Origin: Deferribacterales bacterium
GTDB lineage: Bacteria; Chrysiogenota; Deferribacteres; Deferribacterales; Geovibrionaceae
NCBI GenBank assembly: GCA_050253335.1
Contig: JBFWJG010000055.1
Span: forward strand, 1 to 13,516
Length of the DNA stretch: 13,516 nucleotides
Direction: 5' to 3'
In this document: positions 1,855 through 13,447 of the stretch, in pieces
Layout of the letters: each line of letters starts with the position of its first letter
How positions within the stretch are numbered: the stretch's first letter is position 1
Notes under the pieces: model-generated
What the model was told of the DNA's origin: nothing
The model's database searches: none
The model's input: the letters and a program-made list of their open reading frames with translations, nothing else
Program-made: the position numbers and the translations under genes

Positions 1855-2202
1855 GTGCCAAGAGCAAAAGGCGGGGTCAAAGCCCGCAAACGTCACAAAA
1901 AATGGCTTGAGGTCTCCAAAGGCTTTCAGGGCGCAGCGAACAATGTCTACAAAAAAAGCCGCGAGCAGGGCGAACGCGCTCTTGCTGAGGCTTACAAAGG
2001 CAGAAAACGCAGAAAACGCGACTTCAGAACTCTTTGGATCATAAGGATCGGAGCCGCCGTAAGACAATACGGCCTCAGCTACAGCACCTTCATCGGCAAG
2101 CTGAAAGAGAAGAACATCACCCTCGACAGGAAATCGCTTTCTGAAATGGCTATTAAAAGCCCCGAACAGTTTGAGCAGCTTGTTAAACAGGTAAACGCTT
2201 AG
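1855..2202 (+). CDS. rplT: 50S ribosomal protein L20
   Basis: GTG start after AAGGAGG; MPRAKGG...[16 protein letters not shown]...YSTFI...[10 protein letters not shown]. Confidence 0.99.
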
Positions 2203-2338
2203 CGATCAGACCTGTTTGAAAGCTGCTCAAAAGTAGCGAAGGCGGGTTGAACCCAACTGAGCGTGTCTGCAAAAAGACAGAATGTACTTTTTACAGCGGT
2301 AAATTAAGAGGCAGCTTGTTAAACAGGTAAACGCTTAG
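2175..2338 (+). repeat. Exact 28-bp direct repeat of the rplT 3' end (2175-2202 and 2311-2338) flanking a 108-bp insert
   Basis: GCAGCTTGTTAAACAGGTAAACGCTTAG occurs at both positions; the repeat ends exactly at the rplT TAG stop. Confidence 0.97.
2203..2310 (+). mobile_element. Structured ~108-bp insertion element, copy 1
   Basis: AGCGAAG (2235-2241), short hairpin, GAGCGTGT (2259-2266), stem CTGCAAAAAG/CTTTTTACAG around ACAGAATGT (2277-2285). Flanked by a 28-bp direct repeat. Mobility is inferred from that duplication. Confidence 0.7.
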
Positions 2339-2367
2339 TATTAAGGTTTTATCTGTAGAAGGATACG

Positions 2368-2403
2368 AAAAAGGGAAATCCTGATCAGGGTTTCCCTTTT
2401 TTT
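2368..2403 (+). terminator. Intrinsic terminator of thrS-infC-rpmI-rplT, copy 1 (bidirectional type)
   Basis: AAAAAGGGAAATCCTGATCAGGGTTTCCC followed by 7 T; the A-tract on the left gives a U-tract on the minus strand. Confidence 0.85.
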
Positions 2404-2406
2404 GTG

Positions 2407-2512
2407 TAAAAATACATGGCTGTATTTTCGCCGTGCGCAGCGAAGCCGTGTTTACCACGGCGCGAGCGTGTACAAAAATCCGACAGGACGTGCGGATTTT
2501 TGCGGCAAATCA
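2407..2512 (+). mobile_element. Structured ~106-bp insertion element, copy 2
   Basis: Hairpin AAAATACA-TGGC-TGTATTTT (2409-2428), CGCCGTGCG (2429-2437), AGCGAAG (2439-2445), hairpin CCGTG-TTTAC-CACGG, GAGCGTGT (2464-2471), stem CAAAAATCCG/CGGATTTTTG around ACAGGACGT (2483-2491). Flanked by a 45/46-bp direct repeat. Confidence 0.75.
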
Positions 2513-2518
2513 GATACG

Positions 2519-2555
2519 AAAAAAGGGAAACCCTGATCAGGGTTTCCCTTTTTTT
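2519..2555 (+). terminator. Intrinsic terminator, copy 2 (perfect 36-bp palindrome 2519-2554)
   Basis: AAAAAAGGGAAACCCTGA|TCAGGGTTTCCCTTTTTT, plus one further T. Confidence 0.85.
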
Positions 2556-2566
2556 GTGCCGGAGCA

Positions 2567-2682
2567 CGTCATTCTGAGCGTCAGCGAAGAATCTCACTGC
2601 CGCGAGCAAATCAGTTCTGTGTTTCTGAGATTCTTCACCCTTCGGGTTCAGAATGACGCTTCGACTGAGGTCATTCTGAGCG
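2567..2682. repeat. REP-like inverted doublet of the GTCATTCTGAGCG..GAAGAATCTC type, plus a partial third unit
   Basis: Left arm CGTCATTCTGAGCGTCAGCGAAGAATCTCA (2567-2596). Right arm TGAGATTCTTCACCCTTCGGGTTCAGAATGACG (2626-2658) is its inverted counterpart. A truncated GTCATTCTGAGCG follows at 2670-2682. Confidence 0.8.
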
Positions 2683-2746
2683 ATTGCTCTAATTTATATT
2701 GCCCTCTTTAGGTATTTAATATAACATGGTTCTATATGGAGGAGCT

Positions 2747-3523
2747 ATGGGCAATTCTGAAATAATCATCGAGAAAAACAATCATAAAGGCTATATCACC
2801 CTGAACCGCACTGCGGAGAACAATGCGTTCGGCATAGAGTTTGCGGTGCTCCTTAATCAGGCGCTCAAGGATTTTGACAATGATGATGAAGTCCGGGTGG
2901 TCATCATACGCAACAACGGGAAGCATTTTTCCGTCGGCATTGACCTGAAAGTTCTGGAAAGTGTTGAGGATGAAAAGCTTCTGGAGTTCATAGCCCTGAT
3001 GGATATGCATAATCACACCATTGCGAACATGAAGAAGCCGGTTATTTCCTCCGTAAAAGGTTACTGCGTGGCAAACGGCGCGGGGTTGAGCTTCGCCTGC
3101 GACCTTACTGTTGCCGCTCAGTCCGCTGTGTTCGGCACTACGGCTGTCAACGTAGGGCTTATCTGCACCGGCCCCGGCATTCCGCTGACCAAGAACATCG
3201 GCAAAAAGAAAGCGATGGAAATGGTGCTTCTGGGCGAAAGGTTCACAGCAGAGATGATGCATGGGATGGGGCTTGTGAACTGGGTTGTGCCGGATGATGA
3301 ACTGGAAAAAAAGACAGATGAGATAGCCGATGCCATAGCCGCAAAAAGCCCTCTGGCGGTTTCAGCGGGAAAAAGAGGAATCAGCGGTTCATACGACATG
3401 GGTTACCATGCGGCTATAGATAACGGAACGAGAGTTTTTGCCGAACTCTGCGCAACTGAAGACGCGGCGGAAGGGATAAGGGCGTTCCTTGAAAAAAGAA
3501 AAGCGGAGTGGAAACTGCGCTGA
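2747..3523 (+). CDS. Enoyl-CoA hydratase/isomerase (crotonase superfamily) protein
   Basis: ITLNR..NAF, FSVGIDL, KPVISSVKGYCVANG, ACDL, AMEMVLLGE, GLVNWVVP, EDAAEGIRAFLEKR. Start placed at ATG 2747 after GGAGGAG (2738-2744); ATG 2726 is the alternative. Confidence 0.92.
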   Translation: MGNSEIIIEKNNHKGYITLNRTAENNAFGIEFAVLLNQALKDFDNDDEVRVVIIRNNGKHFSVGIDLKVLESVEDEKLLEFIALMDMHNHTIANMKKPVISSVKGYCVANGAGLSFACDLTVAAQSAVFGTTAVNVGLICTGPGIPLTKNIGKKKAMEMVLLGERFTAEMMHGMGLVNWVVPDDELEKKTDEIADAIAAKSPLAVSAGKRGISGSYDMGYHAAIDNGTRVFAELCATEDAAEGIRAFLEKRKAEWKLR

Positions 3524-3610
3524 AGCAGTGTTAAGCAGGATCACTGAAGTAATAAAACTGAAACTGCCGCTGTTTTCAGGGGTTAGTTACGGATTTGTTA
3601 TGTGTCAGAA

Positions 3611-3634
3611 AGGGAAGCCGCTGCGGGCTTCCCT
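3611..3634 (-). terminator. Hairpin terminator between the convergent crotonase and phosphoesterase genes
   Basis: AGGGAAGCC-GCTGCG-GGCTTCCCT, 9-bp stem; only a short T run follows on the minus strand. Confidence 0.6.
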
Positions 3635-3681
3635 ATCAAGTTATTTAATGTAATACGGAAAATTGCCGGAATTGTATTAAA

Positions 3682-5592
3682 CTACATTCCTTTAACCACA
3701 GCGAAATAGCCGTTGTAGTTTATCACAGCCCAGACTGTGTTTGTTGCCGTGTCAACGCCCCAAGTGCCGAGCTTATCCCCTTCCTGCCAAGCGCGCTGAA
3801 CAAATGTATTGCCTCCGCCGAAATTCTGATCAACAGCATTTATCCATGTGCCGTCATCGTCATTTGTTGCGATGCCGAATTTGCCACCGGCAATCTCAGA
3901 GGAACTTACTTTTGATGAGTCATAGCTCATTGAGAGTGTAAATACATCAGTCTGTTCGCTCCCCATGGTATAAGTCATACCGTTCAGGAAGAAAATTTCA
4001 CTCAGTGAGTCCTGCGGAGTAAGCCAGCCGGTGTTTACATGAAGATTAAATCTGCGCCCGGAAGCTGTTTCCTGCTGGAGGTTGCCGTTTTTACCGTTGA
4101 TTATTTTTGCGTTGGTTCCGCCTGTGCTTGTGGAATCAACTACTGTGAGGCTGCCCCCCTGAGCGATGATATATTCTTCTCCGTTGAGGCTGTAGCCGAA
4201 GGTCTCTTTCTTGGTGAAGTTCATTGTGGGAGTGGTGGTGAAGCTGTCTTCCGTATATGCGGGTGATGAGTAGAAGTCCACGGTGACAACGGGCCCGTCA
4301 ACGGTGAAGATATAATAGCCTACGGAATAAAGCTCCTGAGCTACGTTCTTCTGCCGTATGCCTCCCCAGAGGAGTGCATCGTTTGATTTGTTGACAGGTG
4401 TAAGTCCGTATGCTGCTGCGGTGCTTTCAACATCGCTTCCCGGTGTATAGAATTTTGAGCTGTTGGAAACACAGACAAGCTGCTGAACCTTTGCAGTGGA
4501 ACCGTCTTTGGTGTAGACAAGGCTTCTGTCATGCATATGGTCGTGCCCGTTTATGTGGAAGCGCACTCCGTTTTGTTCAAGGCTGGTGATATAGTCGTCA
4601 AGGCCGGGTGAGTCAAAAGTTGTAAAATCAGGTGCGGTTACATCGTTCACAGTGTAACCGAACATATTGTCAATGTGATCCTGCGTTAGCAGTCCTTTGT
4701 GAGCAAAGCAGAATGCATGTGTGCCGGAGCTTCTGCCGGCAAGCTGTGCGTCTATCCAGCTCTGCTGAAATCTGATGGGATTTGAAGTGGTTTCAACTGC
4801 GTTTATCACGGGCGTTGTGTCGTGTGAAAGCCCGTCTTCGCCTTTGAAGTGATCAAGAAGGACAAAGCGGACATTTTCATAATCGAAAGAGTAGGAGAGT
4901 CCGGTCATGTCATCCGTTTCAGCAGCGGAAGGGCTTGAGAAGTTTCTGCCTAATGTGAATTCGTTGGTGTTTGTTCTGACAATTTCAGGCAGCCAGTTTA
5001 TGTCAGGGTTTACTGCTGAATAGGCATCAGACTGAACGGAGTAAACGTTGTGCACTCCGCCGATTGTCTGAGGAAAAAAGCTGCGGAACTGTGCAGCAGC
5101 CGCAGCAGAGTCATCATGATTTCCTCTCAGGGGGAAAAAGCCTATGCCTTCGTTATAAAGCCTCTGAGCATAACGCGCTCTTACTCCGAAACCGTCAAAC
5201 GGAGTGTAATTGACAGTTGTATCTGTTGGGACATGTTTTGCTGTGAAGTTTTGTTTGGCATCATCAGTGAGGTCGCCCACTGCCACAACAAGCTTGACTC
5301 CGTGCCTAACAAATTCGTCATTAAGGCTGTTGATTATGTCCACTGCTGTTGATGCGGGGTTTTTACCGTCATCATCTTTTGTCCACTGGGTATCGGAAAT
5401 GATGCCGAACTTCCATGCTCCGCTTGTGGGGAGTACTGCTCTGGGAGCAGCGGGTCTGTCCGGAGTATCAGAACCGGATGAACCGCCGCAGCCTACTGTC
5501 ATTCCCACAGCGGCGGCACTCATTGCCGTTGCTGAGAGTTTAAGGAACTGGCGTCTGCCCAGTCCGGTGTTCTTTTCATTTTTCTGTGACAT
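3682..5592 (-). CDS. Tat-exported (probable lipoprotein) calcineurin-like metallophosphoesterase, 636 aa
   Basis: ATG at 5592 with GGAGG 6 nt upstream. Signal GRRQFLK, hydrophobic stretch, TVGC lipobox, then a GGSSGS linker. Metallophosphoesterase motifs in canonical order: ISDTQ, VGDLTD, RGNHD, FAHK, NGHDH. Confidence 0.88.
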   Translation of the reverse strand: MSQKNEKNTGLGRRQFLKLSATAMSAAAVGMTVGCGGSSGSDTPDRPAAPRAVLPTSGAWKFGIISDTQWTKDDDGKNPASTAVDIINSLNDEFVRHGVKLVVAVGDLTDDAKQNFTAKHVPTDTTVNYTPFDGFGVRARYAQRLYNEGIGFFPLRGNHDDSAAAAAQFRSFFPQTIGGVHNVYSVQSDAYSAVNPDINWLPEIVRTNTNEFTLGRNFSSPSAAETDDMTGLSYSFDYENVRFVLLDHFKGEDGLSHDTTPVINAVETTSNPIRFQQSWIDAQLAGRSSGTHAFCFAHKGLLTQDHIDNMFGYTVNDVTAPDFTTFDSPGLDDYITSLEQNGVRFHINGHDHMHDRSLVYTKDGSTAKVQQLVCVSNSSKFYTPGSDVESTAAAYGLTPVNKSNDALLWGGIRQKNVAQELYSVGYYIFTVDGPVVTVDFYSSPAYTEDSFTTTPTMNFTKKETFGYSLNGEEYIIAQGGSLTVVDSTSTGGTNAKIINGKNGNLQQETASGRRFNLHVNTGWLTPQDSLSEIFFLNGMTYTMGSEQTDVFTLSMSYDSSKVSSSEIAGGKFGIATNDDDGTWINAVDQNFGGGNTFVQRAWQEGDKLGTWGVDTATNTVWAVINYNGYFAVVKGM

Positions 5593-5669
5593 ATATATCC
5601 TCCGCAAAATATTGCTAAGGTAATATGAAACCTCGGAATCAGAAAAATGTTGTGCATAATGATAATAAA

Positions 5670-5696
5670 TGTCAGGAAGTGTCAGGTTTTGTTAAT
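5670..5696 (-). promoter_or_regulatory. Candidate OmpR/PhoB-family operator (three direct repeats, 10-bp period) upstream of the phosphoesterase
   Basis: + strand TGTCAGG (5670), TGTCAGG (5680), TGTTAAT (5690); minus strand TTAACA-N4-CTGACA-N4-CTGACA. Confidence 0.4.
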
Positions 5697-5726
5697 GCCC
5701 ACACAGACATTTCCCAAAATAATTCC

Positions 5727-5756
5727 TTGCCATTTTGCACCTGTTTTTAATATCAT
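5727..5756 (+). promoter_or_regulatory. Candidate sigma70 promoter for pheST
   Basis: TTGCCA (5727-5732)-N18-TATCAT (5751-5756), 42 nt before pheS. pheS follows a divergent gene, so it needs its own promoter here. Confidence 0.5.
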
Positions 5757-5798
5757 GCTTGTTCTAATGATTTTGCGAAATAAAGCGGAGAACGATAA

Positions 5799-6815
5799 AT
5801 GCAGCTCGACATAAGCGGACTCGACAGTTACAGGACGGAGATTGCTCAGGCAGCCTCTCTTGATGCCCTGTATCAGGTGAAAGTGAAATATCTCGGTAAA
5901 AACGGGCTAATAAGCAACCTTAACAGACAGCTCAAGGATATATCCTCCCATGAGGATAAAAAAGAGGCGGGAACGAAAATAGGCGCCCTCCGTGCGGATT
6001 TCGAAGCCCTGCACGATGCCAGAGAGCTTGAGCTTAAAAGCGCCGAGAAAAACGCCAGACTCACCGGTGAATCTCTGGACATAACACTCCCCGGCCTTCC
6101 TTTTACATCTGGAAGCATACATCCTGTCACCAGAGTTTTTGACGAGATAGTGGATATTTTCAGCGCCATGGGTTTCGAAGTGGCCATAGGGCCGGAGGTC
6201 GAGCATGACTTCTATAACTTCGAGGCGCTCAACATCCCCAAAGAGCACCCCGCAAGAGACATGCAGGACACGTTTTACATAACAGATGAAATACTTATGC
6301 GCACGCACACTTCCCCCGTGCAGGTGCGTACAATGCTGAAAAACAAGCCTCCTGTGAAGATAATCGCCCCCGGAAAGGTTTACCGCTGTGACAGCGACAT
6401 CACCCACACGCCCATGTTCCATCAGGTTGAGGGGCTCCTTGTGGATGAAAGAACCACCTTCGGCGATCTGAAAGGGATTCTCACCGTATTTATACAGAAG
6501 ATGTTCGGCGATAACGTGCCCGTGCGCTTCCGCCCCAGCTTCTTCCCCTTCACTGAGCCCAGCGCAGAGGTGGATATGGGATGCGTAATCTGCGGAAGCA
6601 AGGGATGCCGTGTGTGCAAACAGACCGGCTGGCTTGAAATCCTCGGCTGCGGAATGGTTGACCCTGCCGTGTTCAAGCATGTGGACTATGATTCGGAAAA
6701 ATACAGAGGCTTCGCCTTCGGTATGGGTATCGAGCGTATCGCCATGCTGAAATACGGCATAGACGATTTACGCCTCTTCTTTGAGAATCACCTTAAATTT
6801 TTGAGGCAGTTTTAG
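5799..6815 (+). CDS. pheS: Phenylalanyl-tRNA synthetase alpha subunit
   Basis: GSIHP, HPARDMQDTFY, RTHTSPVQ, PGKVYRCD, THTPMFHQVEG, FRPSFFPFTEPSAEVD, CxxC-xxx-CxxC, WLEILGCGMV, GFAFGMGIERIAML. Confidence 0.99.
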   Translation: MQLDISGLDSYRTEIAQAASLDALYQVKVKYLGKNGLISNLNRQLKDISSHEDKKEAGTKIGALRADFEALHDARELELKSAEKNARLTGESLDITLPGLPFTSGSIHPVTRVFDEIVDIFSAMGFEVAIGPEVEHDFYNFEALNIPKEHPARDMQDTFYITDEILMRTHTSPVQVRTMLKNKPPVKIIAPGKVYRCDSDITHTPMFHQVEGLLVDERTTFGDLKGILTVFIQKMFGDNVPVRFRPSFFPFTEPSAEVDMGCVICGSKGCRVCKQTGWLEILGCGMVDPAVFKHVDYDSEKYRGFAFGMGIERIAMLKYGIDDLRLFFENHLKFLRQF

Positions 6816-6958
6816 AATCCCACGGAAGGGATTCCGCCGTGCGGAGCGAAGACGCACTCTGTGCGGCGCGAGCGTGTGAGTAAAAAACACAGGATGTAGT
6901 TTTTTACGAACTATTGTAAAAATAAGAGAATCACCTTAAATTTTTGAGGCAGTTCTAG
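6783..6958 (+). repeat. 33-bp direct repeat of the pheS 3' end (6783-6815 and 6926-6958) flanking a 110-bp insert
   Basis: GAGAATCACCTTAAATTTTTGAGGCAGTT[T/C]TAG with one mismatch. It ends exactly at the pheS TAG; the second copy runs into the pheT SD (AGGAG). Confidence 0.97.
6816..6925 (+). mobile_element. Structured ~110-bp insertion element, copy 3
   Basis: Hairpin GAATCCC-ACGGAA-GGGATTC (6815-6834), CGCCGTGCG (6835-6843), AGCGAAG (6845-6851), hairpin CGCAC-TCT-GTGCG, GAGCGTGT (6870-6877), stem GTAAAAAAC/GTTTTTTAC around ACAGGATGT (6889-6897). Flanked by a 33-bp direct repeat. Confidence 0.75.
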
Positions 6959-9391: not shown

Positions 9392-9429
9392 TTTCAGGGG
9401 AACTTTTTAGGAACAAAGTTCCCCTGAAA
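9392..9429. repeat. 15-bp perfect inverted repeat downstream of pheT (hairpin or REP-like unit)
   Basis: TTTCAGGGGAACTTT-TTAGGAAC-AAAGTTCCCCTGAAA, followed by CCCCTCAAAAACT; no U-tract directly after the stem on +. Confidence 0.75.
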
Positions 9430-13241: not shown

Positions 13242-13296
13242 ATTTTCTTTAAAAAGATGTTGACTTAATCCTGCCGTTTTCGTATAACAACCTTCC
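13234..13296 (+). promoter_or_regulatory. Strong sigma70 promoter, rrn P1-like
   Basis: A/T-tract UP element, TTGACT (13260-13265)-N17-TATAAC (13283-13288), then AACCTTCC. Confidence 0.85.
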
Positions 13297-13389
13297 GCTG
13301 AGAGCCGGACTTGAATGTCGCGGAGAGCAGCGGAAAAGTTTAAAGAGTTAAGTTGTTTCACAAGAGAATATGCCGCGGAAAAGGTAAGC

Positions 13390-13447
13390 AAAACTTTTTA
13401 AAAAAGTAGTTGACATCTTTAGCGGAATTTCTTATAACTACCTTCCC
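13390..13447 (+). promoter_or_regulatory. Strong sigma70 promoter, rrn P2-like
   Basis: T5A6 UP element, TTGACA (13410-13415)-N17-TATAAC (13433-13438), then TACCTTCC; exactly 150 bp after the first promoter. Confidence 0.88.

What the first reader, a model, noticed from the sequence alone, without database searches (positions are those of the whole stretch)
2175..6958. Family of ~108-bp structured insertion elements, each flanked by a long, variable-length target duplication
Seen: three non-coding inserts of 108, 106 and 110 bp (2203-2310, 2407-2512, 6816-6925). Each lies between direct repeats of local host sequence: 28 bp (rplT end), 45/46 bp (terminator) and 33 bp (pheS end). The three repeats are unrelated to each other, as expected for target-site duplications. 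All inserts point the same way as transcription and share AGCGAAG-N17/18-GAGCGTGT-stem-ACAG[G/A]A[T/C]GT-R-stem. Copies 2 and 3 also share a 5' hairpin plus CGCCGTGCG. Copies 1 and 2 end alike (GCGGTAAATTA / GCGGCAAATCA). No terminal inverted repeat is common to the three and no transposase, recombinase or RT is in the window. Established: most DDE IS and MITEs make short fixed duplications and carry TIRs; HUH (IS200/IS605, REP) elements make none; long variable duplications are known for IS1549/IS1634 and for target-primed retrotransposition. Inference: a non-autonomous, SINE-like or otherwise unclassified element that is recognised by structure and mobilised in trans. I do not recognise it as a named family.
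Basis: partly seen in the sequence, partly recalled or inferred. Interest (0 to 1): 0.9.

Follow-up and report, generated by a model that had tools for sequence, protein, structure and literature searches.

The report
Hairpin repeat with self-renewing gene-end copies
The three inserts are real copies of a small folded DNA repeat found over a hundred times in this bacterium, and the spare gene end beside it is likely not a frozen insertion scar but a recently working gene end that keeps being replaced, by an enzyme and route still unidentified.

Summary
Observation confirmed; interpretation only partly. The three inserts belong to a ~105-nt three-hairpin repeat with CA(N)GGA(N)G loops: 108 loci in this Deferribacterales genome, with relatives in two families of the order. 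Empty sites exist at pheS and rplT. But only 38 of 176 loci carry a right-hand duplicate (18-80 nt), and it is not an ordinary target duplication. The element's fixed 3' end joins a GA step 11-91 nt upstream (27 of 72 junctions start at GA; background 7%). The junction is shared between genomes (38 of 41 orthologous pairs), yet the duplicate follows each host's own allele (272 of 338 sites). It differs from the gene almost only synonymously (55 of 67 codons; 22-36% expected). Best model: one-sided, hairpin-guided cut-and-join adds flank-plus-element units (as modelled for REP/TnpA-REP), and loss followed by recombinational re-invasion renews the duplicate. No transposase, RT or nuclease tracks the family. 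It most resembles Yersinia YPAL and 'insertion with long target duplication'.

The parts
2175..2202 (+). Left repeat D1: last 28 nt of rplT including its TAG
   Evidence: present once in run X5, which skips 136 nt here, and in G005
2203..2310 (+). Element copy 1, degenerate (first hairpin and both GGA loops decayed); present in all four genomes of the genus
   Evidence: CM 33 bits; 106/108 identical to G003, 105/108 to G002, 87/93 to G001
2311..2338 (+). Right repeat D1': spare rplT end; in G001 it carries G001's own three substitutions
2362..2406 (+). Left repeat D2: terminator-like hairpin with U-tract after rplT
2407..2513 (+). Element copy 2: hairpin 1 (loop variant), CGCCGTGCG-N-AGCGAAG, hairpin 2, GCGAGCGTGT, hairpin 3 with ACAGGACGT loop, tail ending AAATCAG
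   Evidence: CM 104 bits; fold z -3.0; same 3' junction in G001-G003, arrayed in G001 and G003
2513..2558 (+). Right repeat D2' (G2513 shared with the element tail)
6783..6815 (+). Left repeat D3: last 33 nt of pheS including TAG
   Evidence: single copy in 16 of 18 pheS-pheT junctions parsed
6816..6926 (+). Element copy 3 with both GGA loops intact (CCACGGAAGG, ACAGGATGT)
   Evidence: CM 102 bits; fold z -4.2; 99/104 identical to the copy at the same site in G003, where it is doubled
6926..6958 (+). Right repeat D3': spare pheS end with one synonymous difference (TTT/TTC), followed by the pheT ribosome-binding region

Best explanation
The inserts are copies of a ~105-nt non-coding three-hairpin repeat whose fixed 3' end is joined to a GA step a short, variable distance upstream, likely by a hairpin-guided single-strand cut-and-join enzyme acting in trans, and the spare gene end beside it is likely renewed again and again by recombination between strains. 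Shown: fixed tail; GA junctions; tandem flank+element units; new junctions at one locus in different genomes; empty alleles; duplicates that follow the host allele and differ synonymously. Inferred step 1: the sense strand, when single-stranded, folds; it is cut at GA after hairpin 3 and at an upstream GA (in the gene end, a terminator or the loop of hairpin 1); strand transfer then adds one [flank+element] unit, as in the rolling-circle-like model for REP/BIME. Inferred step 2: recombination between the two flank copies deletes a unit and restores an empty allele. Inferred step 3: a donor gene end plus element re-enters an empty or decayed allele by homologous recombination, so the recipient's working gene end is displaced to the right and becomes the 'duplicate'. 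The enzyme, and how wholly new loci are first reached, are not identified.
For: Tail conservation ends about 11 nt after hairpin 3 (223 distinct tails). Junction matches start at GA in 27 of 72 groups vs 7.4% background (p 5e-13), within four bases in 44 of 72 vs 28%, and in 27 of 36 that start with G vs 0.32 (p 1e-7). All three window junctions obey it, and several units start at the GGA loop of hairpin 1. Arrays: 76 of 115 loci in the 87% of complete G003 that was read, up to 8 copies; all 52 arrays in G000 are single-stranded in orientation. Different junctions at one locus: -67 vs -11, -51 vs -12, -51 vs -38. Same junction in 38 of 41 orthologous pairs, yet the right copy matches its own gene at 272 of 338 discriminating sites. 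55 of 67 differing codons are synonymous in 486 codons at 42 loci, against 0.22 (decay) or 0.36 (gene drift plus decay; p 1e-14), spread evenly (36 of 67 distal). At G000 C29 the right copy equals the G003 allele, including its decayed element remnant. Empty alleles. Analogues: TnpA-REP cuts at a dinucleotide at variable distance and is modelled to add units (PMC3333891 passages); Ssn cuts incoming single-stranded DNA near hairpin repeats (PMC11893778 passages).
Against: No candidate enzyme tracks the family: Y1_Tnp in 0 of 4 genomes of the genus (motif scan); small GIY-YIG only in G002 and DUF559 only in G002/G003, each flanked by other repeat families. 28 of 72 junction groups do not start at GA; some look like later decay, but this was not scored. 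GA could be two-base microhomology with the element's own CAGA tail rather than an enzyme site. 138 of 176 loci have no right-hand repeat, which the model must put down to decay, deletion or a closing element. Orthologous loci and pairs are counted per genome, so the p-values overstate. No lagging-strand bias beyond gene orientation (21:14 in convergent regions, p 0.31). Gains and losses could not be polarised at most sites.
Confidence: 0.5

Rival explanations
1. Host-only origin: no dedicated enzyme. Hairpins stall replication or protect the 3' end of incoming single-stranded DNA, two-base microhomology with the CAGA tail re-primes upstream, and ordinary recombination between strains (crossovers inside the element) plus array expansion and contraction keeps the duplicate current.
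For: No partner gene found. Junction-proximal bases are often decayed while the rest is renewed. A ComEC-type domain is in 4 of 4 genomes, but also in 10 of 14 controls. Most long target duplications in Furuta et al. were in competent species (PMC2853133 passage).
Against: A sequence-conserved tail and the same end in a second genus (G004 tail AAATCAG then A) suggest specific recognition. Matches usually begin exactly at GA rather than showing a spread of microhomology lengths. It does not explain arrival at more than 100 unrelated loci.
Confidence: 0.27
2. Classical non-autonomous transposon (MITE of an IS1634/IS1549-like or unknown transposase) that makes a true long target duplication at each insertion, after which both copies drift.
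For: Clean flank-element-flank sites with empty orthologues exist: pheS, and two G003 loci against G000. Repeat lengths vary continuously from 18 to 80 nt. YPAL is described this way.
Against: No terminal inverted repeat. 138 of 176 loci lack a right repeat. Non-duplicated filler of up to 36 nt often separates left repeat and element. Right copies track host alleles and differ synonymously. No multicopy transposase at 75% identity or more.
Confidence: 0.1
3. RNA-templated (SINE-like, target-primed) copying of a transcript that ends at the element's tail back into its own or an allelic locus.
For: Sense orientation behind genes: 40:8 and 57:16 in co-directional regions; divergent regions avoided, 1 of 72 and 7 of 115. 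Fixed 3' end, variable 5' side, co-copied upstream flank.
Against: RVT_1 found in only 1 of 4 genomes of the genus. Stems are 91-98% Watson-Crick with no clear G-U excess (58 G-T vs 39 A-C, p 0.07). Heteroallelic repeats would need RNA and DNA of two strains in one cell.
Confidence: 0.08
4. Both gene ends are used: the flank+element unit is skipped at RNA or ribosome level, so the right copy is translated and held by purifying selection.
For: Synonymous bias, including stop-to-stop changes; 43 of 58 right copies include the stop codon.
Against: The skipped unit would begin in arbitrary host sequence with no conserved 5' signal. Non-coding duplicates (terminators) behave alike. Some right copies carry deletions or radical changes.
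Confidence: 0.04

Closest known systems
YPAL / RU-2 of Yersinia (De Gregorio 2006; seen only through passages of Delihas 2008, PMC2229807)
   Same: Small non-coding intergenic repeat, internal rather than terminal inverted repeats, variable target duplications, targets at or next to dyad symmetry, empty and filled sites, transcribed with upstream genes.
   Different: 168 vs ~105 nt; duplications 3-26 vs 18-80 nt. The passages seen report no GA junction rule, flank+element arrays or allele-tracking duplicates. Sequence homology was not tested.
Insertion with long and variable target duplication (Nobusato 2000, reference only; Furuta 2010, PMC2853133 passages)
   Same: Long variable direct repeats without mobility genes, often spanning a stop codon so the gene stays whole, mostly in competent species.
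   Different: There the cargo is restriction-modification genes and double-strand breaks are invoked; here a dispersed gene-free repeat with one fixed end, a dinucleotide rule and tandem amplification.
REP/BIME with TnpA-REP (RAYT) (PMC3333891 passages)
   Same: Hairpin repeats in variable tandem arrays; dinucleotide-specific junctions at variable distance; the unit-addition model fits the arrays.
   Different: Cut site there is C|T and REPs carry GTAG tags; no Y1 transposase found in this genus; arrays here carry host gene ends.
TwoAYGGAY RNA (Rfam RF01731; bioRxiv 10.64898/2026.09.22.753630 passages)
   Same: Two GGA-bearing loops proposed as Csr/Rsm sites; tens to hundreds of copies; mobility suspected but unresolved.
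   Different: RF01731 finds nothing above cut-off in five genomes. TwoAYGGAY doublets are mostly divergent, whereas these arrays are head-to-tail; the architecture differs.
Ssn GIY-YIG nucleases with NTS/SRM repeats (PMC11893778 passages)
   Same: A hairpin repeat directs a single-strand cut at a fixed offset, including on transforming DNA.
   Different: SRM repeats are another family in this genome (window 2566-2690 resembles one). Ssn is shown to cut, not to join, and no link to this element was shown.

Membership tests
MITE of a DDE IS (incl. IS1634/IS1549-type) | Terminal inverted repeats shared by all copies | tested here: not met
   52-copy alignment: ends unrelated, only internal stems
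MITE of a DDE IS (incl. IS1634/IS1549-type) | Target duplication directly abutting both ends of most copies | tested here: not met
   38 of 176 loci; filler up to 36 nt on the left
MITE of a DDE IS (incl. IS1634/IS1549-type) | Cognate transposase with matching ends | tested here: inconclusive
   No multicopy transposase in G000 or the read part of G003; IS3-like pieces among 150 of 237 G003-only proteins scanned; their ends were not compared; 13% of G003 not read
YPAL-type repeat | TIR-less structured intergenic repeat with variable-length duplications and empty sites | tested here: met
YPAL-type repeat | Sequence homology to YPAL/RU-2 | not testable with these tools
   No YPAL sequence was obtained; the primary paper is not held
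Insertion with long target duplication | Long variable direct repeat, single in an empty allele, no mobility gene | tested here: met
   pheS 33 nt and rplT 28 nt single in empty alleles; 18-80 nt range
Insertion with long target duplication | Restriction-modification cargo | tested here: not met
   Inserts are ~105-nt non-coding sequence
REP/BIME-TnpA-REP | Y1 HUH transposase flanked by the repeat | tested here: not met
   PF01797 in 0 of 4 genomes of the genus, 29 of 68 in the phylum; motif scan negative; flanks of Y1 genes in sister genera were not read
REP/BIME-TnpA-REP | Dinucleotide-specific junctions and tandem unit amplification | tested here: met
   GA at 27 of 72 junctions vs 7.4%; 76 of 115 loci arrayed
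TwoAYGGAY (RF01731) | Covariance-model match over the gathering score | tested here: not met
   0 of 5 genomes over cut-off; no window hit
SINE-like retroelement | Reverse transcriptase available in trans | tested here: not met
   RVT_1 only in G001 among G000-G004
CsrA/RsmA-binding RNA | CA(N)GGA(N)G in hairpin loops (consensus recalled, not from a call) | tested here: met
   Hairpin 1 in 78% of 98 and 65% of 160 copies; hairpin 3 in 89% and 93%; background 2%; CsrA in 5 of 5 genomes
CsrA/RsmA-binding RNA | Expression as RNA and binding of CsrA | not testable with these tools

The most novel reading that the evidence does not exclude
A one-ended homing element: a gene-free hairpin module directs an unknown single-strand nuclease or transferase to join its tail to GA steps upstream, amplifies itself with the host gene end, and persists across a genus by cycles of loss and re-invasion that push each recipient's working gene end aside. 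Its GGA loops would serve as enzyme sites as well as, or instead of, CsrA docks. This would supply a mechanism for 'insertion with long target duplication' and for the unexplained spread of YPAL- and TwoAYGGAY-like repeats.
Probability: 0.3. Interest if true: 0.85.

Novelty: new variant of a known kind. Interest (0 to 1): 0.6.

Why it matters
How small gene-free hairpin repeats spread and amplify is an open question for REP, YPAL and TwoAYGGAY elements. This family gives testable rules: a fixed end, a GA junction, a flank+element unit, and a duplicate that is renewed from working alleles across genomes only about 80% identical. It warns that long 'target-site duplications' in bacteria can be junctions of two alleles rather than insertion scars. 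With two CsrA-type loops per copy and 100-300 copies behind genes, the repeat could also affect mRNA control (untested).

Tried and rejected
Rfam scan of the window: no real hit; RF01731 negative. Partner-gene searches: Y1_Tnp, RVT_1 (21), DUF559 (22), GIY-YIG (19), PDDEXK_3 0 of 21 (61), 23S_rRNA_IVP 0 of 13 in the family (62), motif scan (70), multicopy proteins (59), genes lying between nearby elements (60), Pfam on 150 of 237 G003-only proteins (74). None was linked to the family. One homologue sits just downstream of a small GIY-YIG cassette in G007, but that cassette has its own GTCAT-type repeats; rejected as weak. ORF-containing long copies: none among 18 (G000) and 34 (G003) orphan left halves; an 804-nt spacing in G004 is a long duplication unit, not a mobility gene. 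Viral contigs: 0 pattern hits. Pattern hits in other taxa scored at most 24 bits and lacked the hairpins. Diversity-generating-retroelement-like mutagenesis: differences are not adenine-specific. The reverse complement of the hairpin-3 loop resembles a conjugative nick motif (recalled), but junctions do not map there. Replication-strand bias: none beyond gene orientation. Sequencing runs: no RNA holder listed. Literature searches that found nothing on this family: 0 papers; nothing relevant; PMC6006769 passages held nothing relevant. Not read: G003 2.4-2.8 Mb, most G002 loci (30 of 102 pattern matches were read), and most distant homologues.
Full report
1. Observation. The window covers thrS-infC-rpmI-rplT, two extra genes, pheS-pheT and onward (names from translation). 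The inserts share the stated motifs; copies 2 and 3 fold better than shuffles (z -3.0, -4.2), copy 1 does not (z -1.5). A covariance model scores them at 33, 104 and 102 bits against 9 for the next hit. Rfam gives no real match. The filled sites recur in other genomes and in contigs of runs X2 and X3, so an assembly artefact is unlikely.

2. Family. A profile finds 181 hits at 108 loci in G000 (56 single, 52 arrays, none of mixed strand) and 0 in the reversed genome. A core pattern gives 102 matches in G002 and 242 in the complete G003, with 0 for the reversed pattern. In the 87% of G003 read, 76 of 115 good loci are arrays of up to 8. Record titles place a close relative in Deferribacterales; the genus name Geovibrio comes from earlier scan notes and was not checked. 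The model hits 15 of 15 other genomes of the family, 14 of 21 of family f7 and 0 of 31 others in the phylum; six distant loci were read, and their homologues keep the loops. Pattern hits elsewhere are chance.

3. Anatomy. Hairpin 1, CGCCGTGCG-N-AGCGAAG, hairpin 2, GCGAGCGTGT, hairpin 3 with one bulged base, and a tail of about 11 nt. In 52 copies 95.3% of cells pair and 24 of 31 pairs show double changes; 0 of 500 shuffles reach this (50 rows were chosen by a pattern, so invariant columns are partly by construction). Without selecting on loops, CA(N)GGA(N)G occurs in hairpin 1 of 78% of 98 and 65% of 160 copies and in hairpin 3 of 89% and 93%, against 2% background. This matches the CsrA site as I recall it, and CsrA is in 5 of 5 genomes; binding is untested. 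Stems are 91-98% Watson-Crick with no clear G-U excess. Copies lie behind genes in sense orientation (63 of 72 and 92 of 115) and avoid divergent regions (1 of 72, 7 of 115 vs about 20%) (my own gene calls; 22 G000 loci at contig ends left out). There is no replication-strand bias beyond that.

4. The repeats are not on every copy. 38 of 176 scorable loci have a right-hand copy of the left flank (null 0.3%), 18-80 nt long, starting 11-91 nt upstream, sometimes with up to 36 nt of unduplicated filler next to the element. Many arrays repeat flank+element and end in an element with no closing repeat (19 of 24 such arrays in G003, 11 of 12 in G001, 5 of 12 in G000). Empty sites exist: pheS has one copy in 16 of 18 junctions parsed (2 more were not parsed), including G002 at 97% identity, and run X5 lacks the rplT unit exactly. 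Of loci with an orthologue, 49 and 53 were filled in both G000 and G003, and 7 and 24 were scored empty, many of those being remnants (output partly cut).

5. Junction rule. Tail conservation stops about 11 nt after hairpin 3. Of 72 junction groups, 27 begin their match at GA (background 7.4%, p 5e-13), 44 have GA within four bases (28%), and 28 do not; among the 36 beginning with G, 27 continue with A (0.32 expected, p 1e-7). The three window junctions obey the rule, and several units start in the GGA loop of hairpin 1. Three loci show different junctions in different genomes, each at the element's tail, so the reaction has recurred in place.

6. The duplicate is renewed. In 38 of 41 orthologous pairs the junction is the same, even against a population about 80% identical, yet the right copy matches its own gene at 272 of 338 discriminating sites (47 the other genome, 19 neither). 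At rplT the G001 duplicate carries G001's three substitutions. 43 of 58 right copies include the stop codon. In 42 of them (1 skipped for a gap), 55 of 67 differing codons out of 486 are synonymous, against 0.22 for decay and 0.36 for gene drift plus decay (p 1e-14), with no polarity (a first pass on two genomes gave 20 of 32). Orthologues are counted per genome, so these p-values overstate. At G000 C29 the right copy equals the G003 allele with its element remnant. A frozen scar cannot give this pattern; the right copy was recently a working gene end.

7. Enzyme. None found. The two other repeat families have patchy partners (small GIY-YIG only in G002; DUF559 in G002 and G003) although their repeats occur in G000, so absence of a partner today is weak evidence. 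13% of G003 and 87 of 237 G003-only proteins were not examined, and genes common to the whole genus were not scanned.

8. Mechanism (inferred). A hairpin-guided single-strand cut at two GA steps with strand transfer adds flank+element units, as modelled for TnpA-REP (PMC3333891 passages). Recombination between flank copies removes units; donor gene end plus element re-enters empty or decayed alleles by homologous recombination, displacing the resident gene end. I give this 0.5; a host-only version with microhomology 0.27; a classical transposon 0.10; RNA-templated copying 0.08; use of both gene ends 0.04. How new loci are first reached is not resolved.

9. Known systems and novelty. It works like YPAL (PMC2229807 passages; primary paper not seen) and falls under 'insertion with long target duplication' (PMC2853133 passages; Nobusato 2000 seen only as a reference). 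It is not TwoAYGGAY by model, though that family's spread is also unresolved (bioRxiv passages). Ssn shows hairpin-directed cutting of transforming DNA. Searches found no description of this family; supplements were not read. The scan has noted this family four times in this genome and synonymous gene-end duplicates in other genomes; these are unchecked notes, which supplied the YPAL, TwoAYGGAY and Furuta leads. My two-allele reading was noted before seeing them. Verdict: real, a new variant of a known kind, with a junction rule and genus-wide renewal that make the mechanism testable. Interest 0.6.

Noticed in passing
window 2566-2703: A second repeat family (CGTCATTCTGAGCG...AGCGAAGAATCTC ... 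GAGATTCTTC...CAGAATGACG), 52 BLAST pieces in the genome. It resembles the NTS/SRM repeats of Ssn GIY-YIG nucleases, although G000 has no small GIY-YIG by Pfam.
   Followed up: partly
G000 C21, C32, C41, C45, C121 and others: A longer (~150 nt) sister family with the same GGA-loop outer hairpins, tail and tandem behaviour; 16 copies in G000, 4 in the read part of G003.
   Followed up: partly
L410 (G007) and L294 (G002): Small GIY-YIG genes flanked by GTCAT-type repeats; in G007 the gene is preceded by a copy of its own 3' end, and in G002 about a dozen bases of gene end plus the repeat occur on both sides. Gene-end duplication may be shared by several repeat families.
   Followed up: no
L041, L042: DUF559 (Vsr-like) gene inside arrays of CCCCCT...AGGGGG repeats in G002 and G003; such repeats occur in G000 without the gene.
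   Followed up: partly
window 9392-9429: Perfect 15-bp palindrome after pheT, of a further repeat type; G003 carries three-hairpin elements at this site instead.
   Followed up: no
window 2726-5607: An enoyl-CoA-hydratase-like gene and a 641-aa twin-arginine-signal, phosphoesterase-like gene (names by eye, not scanned) lie between rplT and pheS; in G005 pheS follows rplT directly.
   Followed up: no
L409 (G004), L411-L412 (G028), L413-L414 (G006, G010): Distant homologues keep the GGA loops; G004 has about 70 CM hits and an 804-nt duplication unit, G028 has 45 hits and 164-nt arrays.
   Followed up: partly
L118, L119 (G002): Two copies 554 nt apart in a region without a G000 orthologue, next to an ORF that looks like a phage lysozyme (by eye), so a prophage may carry the element.
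   Followed up: no
window 13259-13420: Two tandem sigma-70-like promoters at the contig end, as expected before an rRNA operon (inference from sequence).
   Followed up: no
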